From Leucoraja erinacea (lineage: Eukaryota): 64,000 bases of DNA. Under the pieces are notes generated by a model. That model did not search any database, was not told the DNA's origin, and saw only the letters and a program-made list of their open reading frames with translations. Position numbers and translations under genes: made by a program. The stretch is taken from assembly GCF_028641065.1 (NCBI RefSeq), contig NC_073406.1:5456001-5520000 (forward strand). Reading direction: 5' to 3'. Positions 38,185-41,100 of the stretch are shown in pieces (position 1 is the first letter of the stretch; every line of letters begins with the position of its first letter).

Positions 38185-41100
38185 TTATCGAAAATAATTT
38201 GGGCAATCATGTGCGACAAGTTTCCAACCTTCATTGAAGGCGTCGACTACTGAAGAAGCAAGTGGTCCTTCCTCAGAAGCAGTCAAGTTCTGTTGAAGCT
38301 GTTCCAGTGATGAATTCCCAAGGATAACACCATCCCCGAGATCTCCCTGATCAAAAGAGAACAGCATTATTAGTAATTTCGTTTATTTTATCCATCCTTC
38401 GCTCATCCTCTTTGCAACATTTTCTTATTCCCATGAAGGGTGGTTGAGCTAAAACATTAACTTTCCTTCTCTTTCCACAGATGTTACCCGACCTGTTGCG
38501 TTTTTCCAGTATTTTCTGTTTTTGTTTCCGATTTCCACATCTGCATTTTTTAAATGTTCAAATCTTTGCCGTCAGTTGTAATTTAATATGTTGATATTTG
38601 TATTGCTGAATGTGTACCTGAAGTTTGGAATGGTGATATATCCATCGTAATGCTGCTGATGTCAGGCTTGTCTTCCCACACCCATAGGTTTCATCTATTG
38701 CTTTCTTCACCAAATCTATGGCTCGGAAATGATGCTCCTTCCAGTACCTGATGAACAGTGGACAGCAGATAAGATTATGCAAGGGGAATCAGGAAAGTTG
38801 CAAAACTTTGGATGAGATGTCAAACAACCATCTCACCATAAGGAAGCATATAATCTTAAGTGTGATGAATGTAGAAAACCAGCAAACTCACCTGTTTCTG
38901 TACGCCTCGGCCCAGTTGTTACCAAAGAAGCGACCAGTGGGTTGTTTCTCAAACTTGTCCTCAAACTGATATTTCCCAGTCAGTAGCCCACCTGCACCAA
39001 TGAGACAGTTAATACCATTCTACAGGATCTCACCACCAACCCCAACCCAAGAGCCAGGCATTCTCTGCACCCAATGAGTTTCAAACTGAGGCCTGACTGA
39101 ACCCGACTACCATCTTGTGAAAAACACAAAGGTGCTGGAGTAACTCAGTGGGTCAGGTAGCATCTGTGAAGGCATATGCCAAGAAGGATCCCAACCCAAA
39201 ATGTCATTATCCATTCGCTCCATCTATGCTGCCCGACCTGCTGAGTTTTCCCAGCACTTTCTGTTTTGCTCAAGATTCCAGCATCTGCAGTTCCTTTTGC
39301 ATTCATTTTGTGAAGATTTGCAATGGACCCCCATTTTCCTCCTCCCCAATTCACCTCAGGGGCGATCCTTCACTGAGTAATGGAGGGGTAGGCTGCCGTT
39401 GTTTGATGAATGCACATGCACTTGCACACCTCCACAAAGCCTTCACTACTGTTGGGCGGGGGAAAAAATACAAACAGCTCAGACCACGGTAGAGGTGTGG
39501 GTGGGCTCAACTACTGTATTTTGGGCTCCTGGGAAATCTTTTCCTAACATCCATATTGTGCAGCAGGGCTGGAAAATTCACATGGAACTTTGTCAATAGT
39601 TACATTTTTCTAAACAATCCCTGTTCCAGGCGTACACTGGCCCTATCCCTGAACTCGATCTCCGTTACATTGATGACTGCATCGGTGCTACATCCTGCAC
39701 CCATGGACTTCATCATCAATTTTCATCCTGCACTCAAATTTACTTGGACCATCTCCGACACCTCCCTCCCCTTACTTAATCTCAGTCTCCATCCCAGGAA
39801 GTAGACTATTGACTGATATCTATTACAAACCCACTGACTCCCACAACTATCTCGACTACACTTCTTCTCACCCTGCTTCCTGCAAAGACTCTATCCCCCA
39901 ACTCCCAATTCCCGTCTACACAGAATCTGTGTCCAAGATTAGATGTTCCATACTAGAACATCCGAGATGTCCTCATTCTTAAGAAAACAGGGTTTCCCCT
40001 CTACCATCATAGATGAGGCACTCACTCGTGTCTCCTCAATACCCCGCAGCTACGCCCTTGCTACCTCTTCACCTAGTCGCAACAGAGACAGAATCCCCCT
40101 AGTTCTTACCTTCCACCCCATCAGCCGTCGCATACAACACATAATCCTCCAAAATTTCTGCCACCTCCAATGGCATCCTGCCACTAGCCACAATTTTCCA
40201 TATCCACCCCTTTCCGCCTTCCGTCTGTCGCTATACCAGGTTAGGCAGAGGTTCACTTGCACCTCTTCCAACCTCATCTACTGTATCCGTTGTTCAAGAT
40301 GTGGACTCTTCTACATTGGCGAGACCAAACGCAGACTGGGCGATCGTTTCGCGGAACACCTTTGCTCAGCCCGCCTGAAACAACCTGATCTCCCGGTTGC
40401 TGGACACTTTAATTCTCCTTCCCATACCTACACAGACCTTTCTGTCCTCGGTCTCCTCCATTGTCAGAGACTAAAGGCAAATTGGAGAAACAGCATCTCA
40501 TATTTTGCTTGGGCAGCTTGTAGCCCAGTGGTATGAATCTCGATTTCTCTCACTTCAGGAAGCCCCGGCATTCCATCTCTCTATCCCTCCCCACTCAAGT
40601 CGCACTAGCTCATTTTAATCCTAGAAACAACTTTATCATAGTTACTTTTTTGCATATCTTTCACTCACTGTTCTTTATTTCTCCACATCACCGTCTATGT
40701 CTCTTGTTTCCCTTATCCCTATACAGTCTGAAGAAGGGTCTCGACCCAAAACGTCACCCATTCCTTCTCTCCAGAGATGCTGCCTGGCCTGCTGAGTTAC
40801 TCCAGCTTTTTGTGTTTACCTTACATTTGTCCGTGTTCTGGTAAAGAGATGCAACAGGGAAACGGACCCTTTGGCCCACCGTCCACATTGATCATCAAAC
40901 CAATGTAAATGCATGAATCTTACACTAAACAATCCAATTTTATTCTCTCCATATCACCAATTTCCACCAGATTCTACTACTCATGTACCCACTAGGGGGG
41001 GATTTACAGCGGCCTACCAACCCACACGTCTGGGATGTGGGAACAAAAAGGAGCATCCGGGGAAAATGTGTGCGGTCACAGGGAAAATATGCAAATTCCA

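What the first reader, a model, noticed from the sequence alone, without database searches (positions are those of the whole stretch)
40725..40760. Hammerhead ribozyme cores in the Penelope pseudo-LTR family dispersed through the window
Seen: the most frequent short repeat contains CTGAAGA-A-[GGGTC TC GACCC or GGGT TTCG GCCC]-GAAA-CGTC/CGTT. Plus-strand copies are at ~19424, 40728, 44970, 57274 and 60112. Minus-strand copies are at ~19155-19177, 22703-22730, 25904-25931, 32241-32268, 35126-35155 and 44604-44631. Two copies sit directly downstream of GIY-YIG coding remnants. The two stem-II variants differ in sequence yet both keep pairing. Known: CUGANGA and GAAA are the hammerhead catalytic boxes, and Penelope-like elements carry minimal hammerheads whose palindromic stem III works through dimerisation. 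Inference: these are self-cleaving motifs with a loopless ACGU stem III that needs a dimer. Many copies are mutated (the 40728 copy has AAAA for GAAA). Stem I is weak, and there is an extra A after CUGAAGA.
Basis: partly seen in the sequence, partly recalled or inferred. Interest (0 to 1): 0.7.

Follow-up and report, generated by a model that had tools for sequence, protein, structure and literature searches.

The report
Penelope hammerhead ends, a million copies
This repeat is the end-piece of a Penelope-type jumping gene carrying an already published minimal hammerhead (self-cutting RNA) motif; most genomic copies are short and decayed, they likely come from uncut RNA, and the youngest versions are predicted to fold badly as ribozymes, so it is a very abundant new example of a known kind.

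Summary
Observation confirmed. All 11 listed copies exist, among 52 profile matches in the window. The genome holds 80,902 core-intact motifs against 1 in the control, and about 1.1 million pieces by extrapolation. The motif lies in the pseudo-LTR of a ~3.8-kb Penelope-like element (RT, CX4CxxC linker, GIY-YIG). It fits the minimal hammerhead of Cervera and De la Pena 2014, where the 'extra A' and palindromic ACGU are defining traits. Helix II is better read as 4 bp plus a tetraloop; covariation is weak. The 40728 'AAAA' is CpG decay. Of 95 young copies, 0 begin at the predicted cut, 67 begin at -9 to +12 of the core, and they end at two sites ~36 nt apart. They look like run-off cDNA from uncut, likely capped RNA. 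Young subfamilies have a 2-bp helix I and a competing pairing predicted to displace helix II; an older lineage has 4 bp and folds it stably. Cleavage was not tested. The scan reported this family before, in this genome and in sharks. New member of a known kind; interest 0.3.

The parts
39606..40556 (+). Frameshifted remnant of the Penelope-like ORF (RT 3' part, linker, GIY-YIG endonuclease)
   Evidence: tblastn with the L041 ORF, E 9e-92; Pfam GIY-YIG E 1.7e-4, just under the curated cut-off
40557..40725 (+). Pyrimidine-rich 3' UTR between ORF end and hammerhead; ends in an initiator-like CAGT
   Evidence: sequence; position relative to ORF end
40726..40727 (+). Helix I 5' strand (GU), 2 bp with 40756-40757
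40728..40734 (+). CUGANGA box (C3-A9)
40735..40735 (+). [quoted passage not shown]
   Evidence: sequence; PMC4209133 text and Fig. S3
40736..40747 (+). Helix II, 4 bp with CUCG tetraloop
   Evidence: 92.6% of cells paired in 17 window copies
40748..40751 (+). GAAA box, here AAAA through CpG-to-CpA decay; predicted inactive in this copy
   Evidence: C11.1-G12 reads CG 82, CA 47, TG 19 of 177 copies
40751..40755 (+). Palindromic ACGU (loopless helix III) and C17; predicted cut between 40755 and 40756
   Evidence: sequence; PMC4209133
40756..40822 (+). Rest of the pseudo-LTR; its first four bases (ACCC) repeat the helix II 3' strand and are predicted to compete with it
   Evidence: profile match 40723-40822 and folding
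44968..45063 (+). Young solo copy with intact core (GUU triplet), preceded by a partial duplicate from 44943; 9-nt target duplication at 44935-44943 and 45064-45072
56840..57367 (+). GIY-YIG remnant, 3' UTR and hammerhead copy (core at 57274)
19419..19502 (+). Decayed copy (core 19424)
60102..60204 (+). Decayed copy (core 60108)
19095..19184 (-). Copy with C3 changed to U (core 19178)
18787..18888 (-). Young copy with a 4-nt insertion in helix II (core 18883)
22641..22736 (-). Decayed copy (core 22730)
25838..25937 (-). Decayed copy with a short piece of 3' UTR (core 25931)
32174..32339 (.). Head-to-head pair; minus-strand core at 32268
35074..35155 (-). Solo copy (core 35155), helix I and palindrome lost
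44536..44631 (-). Solo copy (core 44631), probable duplicate of the 35155 insertion
   Evidence: shared upstream flank
3779..3936 (.). Head-to-head pair joined inside helix II through the internal palindrome; first core box lost
28746..28843 (+). Copy of the older lineage (13-nt helix II region, AACU helix I strand)

Best explanation
The repeat is the pseudo-LTR of a ~3.8-kb Penelope-like retrotransposon and carries a published-type minimal hammerhead motif, and most copies are likely run-off cDNAs copied from the 5' end of uncut, likely capped element RNA, with cleavage predicted to be slow and likely dependent on a dimer and protein. Shown: the anatomy, copy numbers, target duplications, two 3' ends and the 5'-end cluster. 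Inferred: transcription starts at an initiator-like TCAGT 2-3 nt before the core, so the RNA begins at helix I. Reverse transcription starts internally at two sites about 95 and 131 nt after the core start and runs off the cap, sometimes adding G. The ~100- or ~135-nt product inserts alone or folds back head-to-head. Longer copies come from the 3' pseudo-LTR by the same priming. Untested: any cleavage. If it occurs, two motifs would pair through ACGU and cut after GUC/GUU, removing the cap and about 31 nt; in young subfamilies a competing fold would make this rare.
For: Motif 110-130 nt behind the endonuclease end in 18 of 20 long copies. Motifs at both ends, 3.65-3.85 kb apart, in 4 of 10 loci; ORF start about 170 nt after the 5' core. 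Fit to the published consensus. 80,902 core-intact motifs against 1. Among 7 subfamily consensuses N7, loop II and 11 of 19 columns after the cut vary, while the 11 core columns differ only at the CpG-hit G12. Older lineage: U at N7 in 9 of 9 and AGUU upstream in 4 of 5 copies, neither selected for. 5' ends: 67 of 95 young copies at -9 to +12, 20 at -3/-2, 0 at +13 to +29; 3 of 289 at position 1.1 in an independent sample. Target-duplication-like matches in 46 of 383 against 56 of 1910 controls; 27 of 95 abut the two 3' ends (16 short, 11 long). G next to the 5' end in 9 of 15 junctions with untemplated letters (hand tally; p=0.001). RNA reads from 4 runs reproduce both boundaries as loose ends. 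PMC11167929 shows internal priming at two sites, use of uncut RNA and protein-assisted cleavage for an anole element.
Against: No Rfam hammerhead match. Core against downstream variability among subfamilies is 2 of 15 against 21 of 56, p=0.12, and a downstream block is also well kept (10 of 37 columns vary). Covariation is not clearly above shuffles. The 5' ends spread from -5 to +12 rather than forming one sharp start. The G tally is small, post hoc and by hand. No RNA start was observed: no place where many molecules begin near the motif. The 95 young copies are the first matches on one contig and include a few duplicates. The helix-I/III dimer with one active site is computed at -9.4 to -10.3 kcal/mol, weaker than two free monomers (-13.4 to -14.4).
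Confidence: 0.75

Rival explanations
1. The young subfamilies are no longer ribozymes. The motif is kept for another job, such as an internal promoter or a binding site for the element's protein, and helix I has decayed.
For: Helix I is 2 bp in young subfamilies against 4 bp in the older lineage. With 95 nt downstream, predicted helix II probability is 0.00-0.42 in six younger consensuses against 0.92-0.98 in the old one. No copy starts at the cut. Naiad elements spread without hammerheads (PMC8557442 passages). Penelope has an internal promoter with an ACGT-containing downstream element (PMC2377424 passages).
Against: Both boxes, the extra nucleotide, the palindrome and H17 (C or U) are kept across all subfamilies while neighbours change. 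Published motifs with 2-bp helix I exist. The anole motif cleaves only with protein, so poor free folding is expected. Energy models ignore tertiary contacts and co-transcriptional order. The old consensus rests on 12 copies chosen for their helix I 3' strand.
Confidence: 0.35
2. The motif is an efficient dimeric ribozyme that processes element RNA before insertion.
For: Full fit to the minimal descriptor; tandem pseudo-LTRs supply two motifs per transcript; dimer cleavage is reported for related motifs.
Against: 0 of 95 and 3 of 289 copies begin at the cut, and copies run 65-100 nt past it at their 3' end. Published in vitro activity is low. A re-ligated circle would hide the cut, but would not explain the 5'-end cluster at helix I.
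Confidence: 0.2
3. The 5'-end cluster comes from a splice acceptor (pyrimidine tract plus CAG just before the core) or from RT stalling, not from a transcription start.
For: In D. virilis Penelope an intron ends at helix I. The skate-type UTR ends in a pyrimidine tract and CAG.
Against: Solo copies share no upstream exon, and target duplications often abut the motif directly. No GT..AG joint into the motif among 15 of 20 joints shown. Stalling at helix II would leave ends near +20, where there are none.
Confidence: 0.12
4. Chance resemblance of an ordinary SINE-like repeat to hammerhead boxes.
For: No Rfam match; weak covariation.
Against: Position in the pseudo-LTR of an RT-GIY-YIG element, where such motifs are published, and a match to every descriptor feature.
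Confidence: 0.03

Closest known systems
Minimal type-I hammerheads (min-HHR) in pseudo-LTRs of metazoan Penelope-like elements (Cervera and De la Pena 2014, PMC4209133; read: abstract, results, discussion, supplement parts 1-2 of 3)
   Same: CUGANGA-H, G10.1-C11.1, GAAA, palindromic 15.2-16.2 without loop, UH, short helix I; location in pseudo-LTRs; mostly solo copies; some pairs on opposite strands.
   Different: No cartilaginous fish in their Fig. S3 list. Copy number here is 80,902 core-intact by a looser sequence pattern, against about 4,000 (coelacanth) and 9,000 (Xenopus) by their descriptor. Helix II (4 bp) and helix I (2 bp) are at the short end.
PAc, Poseidon element of Anolis carolinensis (Frangieh et al. 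2024, PMC11167929; read: main text parts 1-2 of 4)
   Same: Two internal RT start sites defining an optional 30-40-nt tail; uncut RNA as template; no RNA-seq ends at the cut.
   Different: PAc is Penelope/Poseidon clade and its ORF starts in helix II. Here a CX4CxxC linker is present and the ORF starts about 170 nt after the core.
Neptune clade of endonuclease-bearing Penelope-like elements (described in PMC8557442; passages read)
   Same: RT with DKG and YIDD, CX2-5CxxC linker, C-terminal GIY-YIG; partial tandems, inverted 5' copies, tail.
   Different: No tree was built, and the linker is shared with Nematis.
Animal non-LTR retrozymes (bioRxiv 10.64898/2026.07.22.740005; read: part 1 of 5 and passages)
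   Same: Type-I hammerheads derived from pseudo-LTRs; found in one chondrichthyan genome.
   Different: Retrozymes are defined as tandem repeats; the copies here are dispersed solos or head-to-head pairs.

Membership tests
min-HHR of Penelope-like elements | CUGANGA and GAAA boxes with UH | tested here: met
   80,902 against 1 genome-wide; intact in 51 of 68 young copies and 48 of 177 of all ages; broken in the 40728 copy
min-HHR of Penelope-like elements | Extra nucleotide between 9 and 10.1; G10.1-C11.1 pair | tested here: met
   A at 83%, G10.1 79%, C11.1 69% with CpG decay
min-HHR of Penelope-like elements | Palindromic 15.2-16.2, no loop III | tested here: met
   19 of 25 descriptor hits; CG in all 7 subfamily consensuses after CpG handling
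min-HHR of Penelope-like elements | Helix I of at least 2 bp and helix II | tested here: met
   Helix I >=2 bp in 18 of 25, >=3 bp in 1 of 25; 4 bp in the older lineage
min-HHR of Penelope-like elements | Compensatory covariation in helices | tested here: inconclusive
   2 pairs with double changes, 85 of 500 shuffles as high; score 20 of 500; young variants differ one-sidedly
min-HHR of Penelope-like elements | Located in a pseudo-LTR | tested here: met
min-HHR of Penelope-like elements | Self-cleavage as dimer | not testable with these tools
   Only indirect: no copies start at the cut; predicted misfolding
Rfam hammerhead families | Covariance-model match | tested here: not met
   a loopless helix III falls outside the canonical models (inference)
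Penelope-like elements, EN+ | RT followed by C-terminal GIY-YIG | tested here: met
   YIDD and DKG motifs read; Pfam GIY-YIG E 1.1e-4 to 0.056; Pfam gave no RT match
Penelope-like elements, EN+ | Partial tandems, inverted 5' copies, optional 30-40-nt tail | tested here: met
   tandems; inverted neighbour in 160 of 442; tail in 38 of 95
Neptune clade | CX2-5CxxC linker between RT and EN | tested here: met
   C-X4-C-X2-C
Neptune clade | RT phylogeny | not tested
Non-LTR retrozymes | Tandem units each with a hammerhead | tested here: not met
   window copies are dispersed or head-to-head; no genome-wide tandem search was run

The most novel reading that the evidence does not exclude
In this lineage the element's RNA starts at helix I, and the subfamilies that amplified most traded a well-folding hammerhead for a self-masked one: helix I shrank from 4 to 2 bp and a decoy strand just past the cut captures helix II. 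The ribozyme stays off until the element's protein remodels it, which protects the cap and leaves about a million strong-stop-like cDNA insertions. Old and young motifs from one genome would then be a natural on/off pair for testing what Penelope hammerheads are for.
Probability: 0.3. Interest if true: 0.6.

Novelty: new member of a known kind. Interest (0 to 1): 0.3.

Why it matters
The kind is published, so the catch itself is ordinary. The function of Penelope hammerheads is still described as unclear (PMC8557442). This genome gives a very large natural record of insertion junctions, which argues that copies come from uncut RNA and points to a start site at helix I. It also offers old and young motif versions with opposite predicted folding for a simple side-by-side cleavage assay. 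At about 500 pieces per Mb, present in host transcripts in both orientations, the family also matters for repeat annotation and causes false microRNA-precursor matches.

Tried and rejected
Rfam scans gave no hammerhead match; the microRNA-like matches are head-to-head repeat pairs. A peak of 5' ends at the cut was sought and not found. Excess core conservation among copies is small (7.9% against 9.8%, p=0.017) and may reflect ascertainment, so it was not used as proof. A pattern for a 13-nt helix II region with C11.1 returned 1,911 matches, the listed ones mostly single-base insertions in young copies, not a new family. A coding role for the AUG inside the pseudo-LTR was doubted because subfamilies differ by a 1-nt indel there. 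No RNA holder on record was listed by the run index. Four raw-read RNA runs were laid: 43-95% of reads run on into unlike flanks, both strands are covered, and no start or end pile-up lies at the cut; standard libraries cannot show cleavage ends, so this is no evidence either way. Lunse et al. 2017 (dimer cleavage) is not held; I know it only through review passages (PMC6765202). One search fetched an unrelated paper. Literature searches for a cartilaginous-fish report: 'elasmobranch + Penelope + ribozyme' 0 papers, 0 papers, nothing relevant among 25 listed of 887, 2 papers. Subscription journals, repeat databases and the bioRxiv supplement naming the chondrichthyan genome were not seen, so absence from print is not established. 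A sequence look-up in earlier findings returned nothing.

Full report
Observation. The loose pattern occurs 15 times against 6.63 expected, 0 of 100 shuffles reaching it. A profile built from fetched copies finds 52 pieces in the window, 359 in 664 kb against 0 in reversed sequence, and 324 in 13 blocks (650 kb) chosen without regard to hits, which extrapolates to about 1.1 million in the 2.19-Gb genome (blocks range from 13 to 51 per 50 kb). Exact genome-wide counts: 80,902 core-intact motifs against 1, 4,779 for one 34-nt variant, and 40,459 for a 37-nt stretch of the youngest subfamily.

What the motif is. It reads GU-CUGAAGA-A-GGGU(YUCG)RCCC-GAAA-CG-U-Y, then RC. This fits the minimal hammerhead consensus of PMC4209133, whose discussion names the extra nucleotide after A9, the G10.1-C11.1 pair and the palindromic 15.2-16.2 as conserved traits and whose Fig. 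S3 includes motifs with 2-bp helix I but no cartilaginous fish (parts 1-2 of 3 read). Rfam finds no hammerhead. A descriptor gives 25 hits in 664 kb against 0 in 10 shuffles; 14 have both palindrome and helix I of at least 2 bp, only 1 has 3 bp or more. In the window 3 copies pass fully. The 40728 copy has lost G12 by CpG decay (CG 82, CA 47, TG 19 of 177).

The element. The motif follows the GIY-YIG end in 18 of 20 long copies. Of 10 loci chosen for the ORF's 5' part, 4 carry the motif at both ends, 3.65-3.85 kb apart, around DKG, YIDD, a C-X4-C-X2-C linker and GIY-YIG. The ORF starts about 170 nt after the 5' core. The linker marks Neptune or Nematis (PMC8557442 passages); I built no tree. 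In the window the coding remnants end at 40556 and 57162.

Selection and covariation. Among 7 subfamily consensuses (n=8 to 42, from 177 near-complete copies) the core differs only at CpG-hit G12, N7 and loop II vary, and 11 of 19 columns after the cut vary; the formal contrast is not significant (2 of 15 against 21 of 56, p=0.12). The two stem-II variants differ by one-sided changes. On 17 window copies 89% of cells pair, but double changes are not above shuffles (85 of 500). An older lineage has U at N7, a 5-bp helix II and a 4-bp helix I (109 exact matches; 12 copies selected for the 3' strand).

How copies were made. In 289 young copies only 3 begin at position 1.1. Of 236 copies that reach the core's 5' edge, 136 have unrelated upstream DNA, 51 carry the 3' UTR and 49 are head-to-head; conservation among the 136 falls from 0.75 at -2 to 0.37 at -4. 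In 95 copies of the youngest subfamily, anchored downstream of the cut (first matches on contig C1, a few duplicated), 25 continue into the UTR, 67 begin at -9 to +12, 20 at -3/-2, 0 at +13 to +29 and 3 at +30 or later. Target-duplication-like matches occur in 46 of 383 against 56 of 1910 controls, some being internal repeats. The 3' ends fall at two sites about 36 nt apart, as in the anole element where these are RT start sites and uncut RNA is the template (PMC11167929). Nine of 15 junctions with untemplated letters have G next to the 5' end (hand tally, p=0.001). TCAGTCT matches the initiator consensus (recalled). The cap and run-off reading came from earlier notes and I tested it here. RNA reads from 4 runs show the same boundaries as loose ends, with depth in the thousands on the pseudo-LTR and at most about 30 over most of the ORF start, and no pile-up at the cut.

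Can it still cut? Not tested. With 95 nt downstream, helix II probability is 0.92-0.98 for the old consensus and 0.00-0.42 for six younger ones, where the GGGU strand pairs with the pyrimidines just past the cut. The youngest subfamily also has a palindrome that can take up GAAA (probability 0.33-0.58 in short contexts) and that explains inversions at +10/+11. The one-site dimer is computed weaker than two monomers. These models ignore tertiary contacts and protein, and published motifs are slow and protein-assisted. I put cleavage competence of the young versions at about even odds.

Verdict. A real, correctly recognised member of a known kind, already noted several times by this scan. The junction census and the old-versus-young folding contrast are the parts worth a bench test. 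I found no paper on cartilaginous-fish Penelope ribozymes, but coverage is incomplete, Lunse 2017 could not be read, and the 2026 preprint includes one chondrichthyan genome whose supplement I did not see. Interest 0.3.

Noticed in passing
window 44920-45140: The young solo at 44968-45063 inserted into the GAAA-CGUC region of an older copy, with a 9-nt target duplication and an aborted partial duplicate in front. It may hint at targeting of the element's own pseudo-LTR.
   Followed up: partly
window ~29900-35500 and ~40900-44950: Two similar blocks with aldo-keto reductase exon matches (Pfam E 0.002-0.06), apparently a tandem gene duplication that also duplicated the solo copies at 35155 and 44631.
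   Followed up: partly
window 16101-16418 and ~17664-17700, minus strand; 54716-55069, minus strand: Exons matching the EMC1 N-terminal propeller (E 3e-13) and a HORMA domain (E 1.6e-4; MAD2L2-like by recall).
   Followed up: no
window 27068-28143 and 57674-58395, minus strand: Further Penelope RT and EN remnants; a plus-strand solo pseudo-LTR at about 27268-27400 interrupts the RT remnant.
   Followed up: no
L145:574-750, L149, L160 (5' pseudo-LTR): An out-of-frame AUG inside the pseudo-LTR opens a ~41-codon frame overlapping the main start, and the main frame is open for about 55 codons upstream of its ATG.
   Followed up: no
L150, L157, L162: The proline-rich N-terminal part of the ORF has expanded into minisatellite-like arrays (repeating PDLPNMAAG-type units) in several copies.
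   Followed up: no
window 17700-17990 and 18440-18540: Short tandem arrays giving repetitive open frames.
   Followed up: no
L052:2013-7128: Three identical rearranged pseudo-LTR pieces around one element, on both strands.
   Followed up: no
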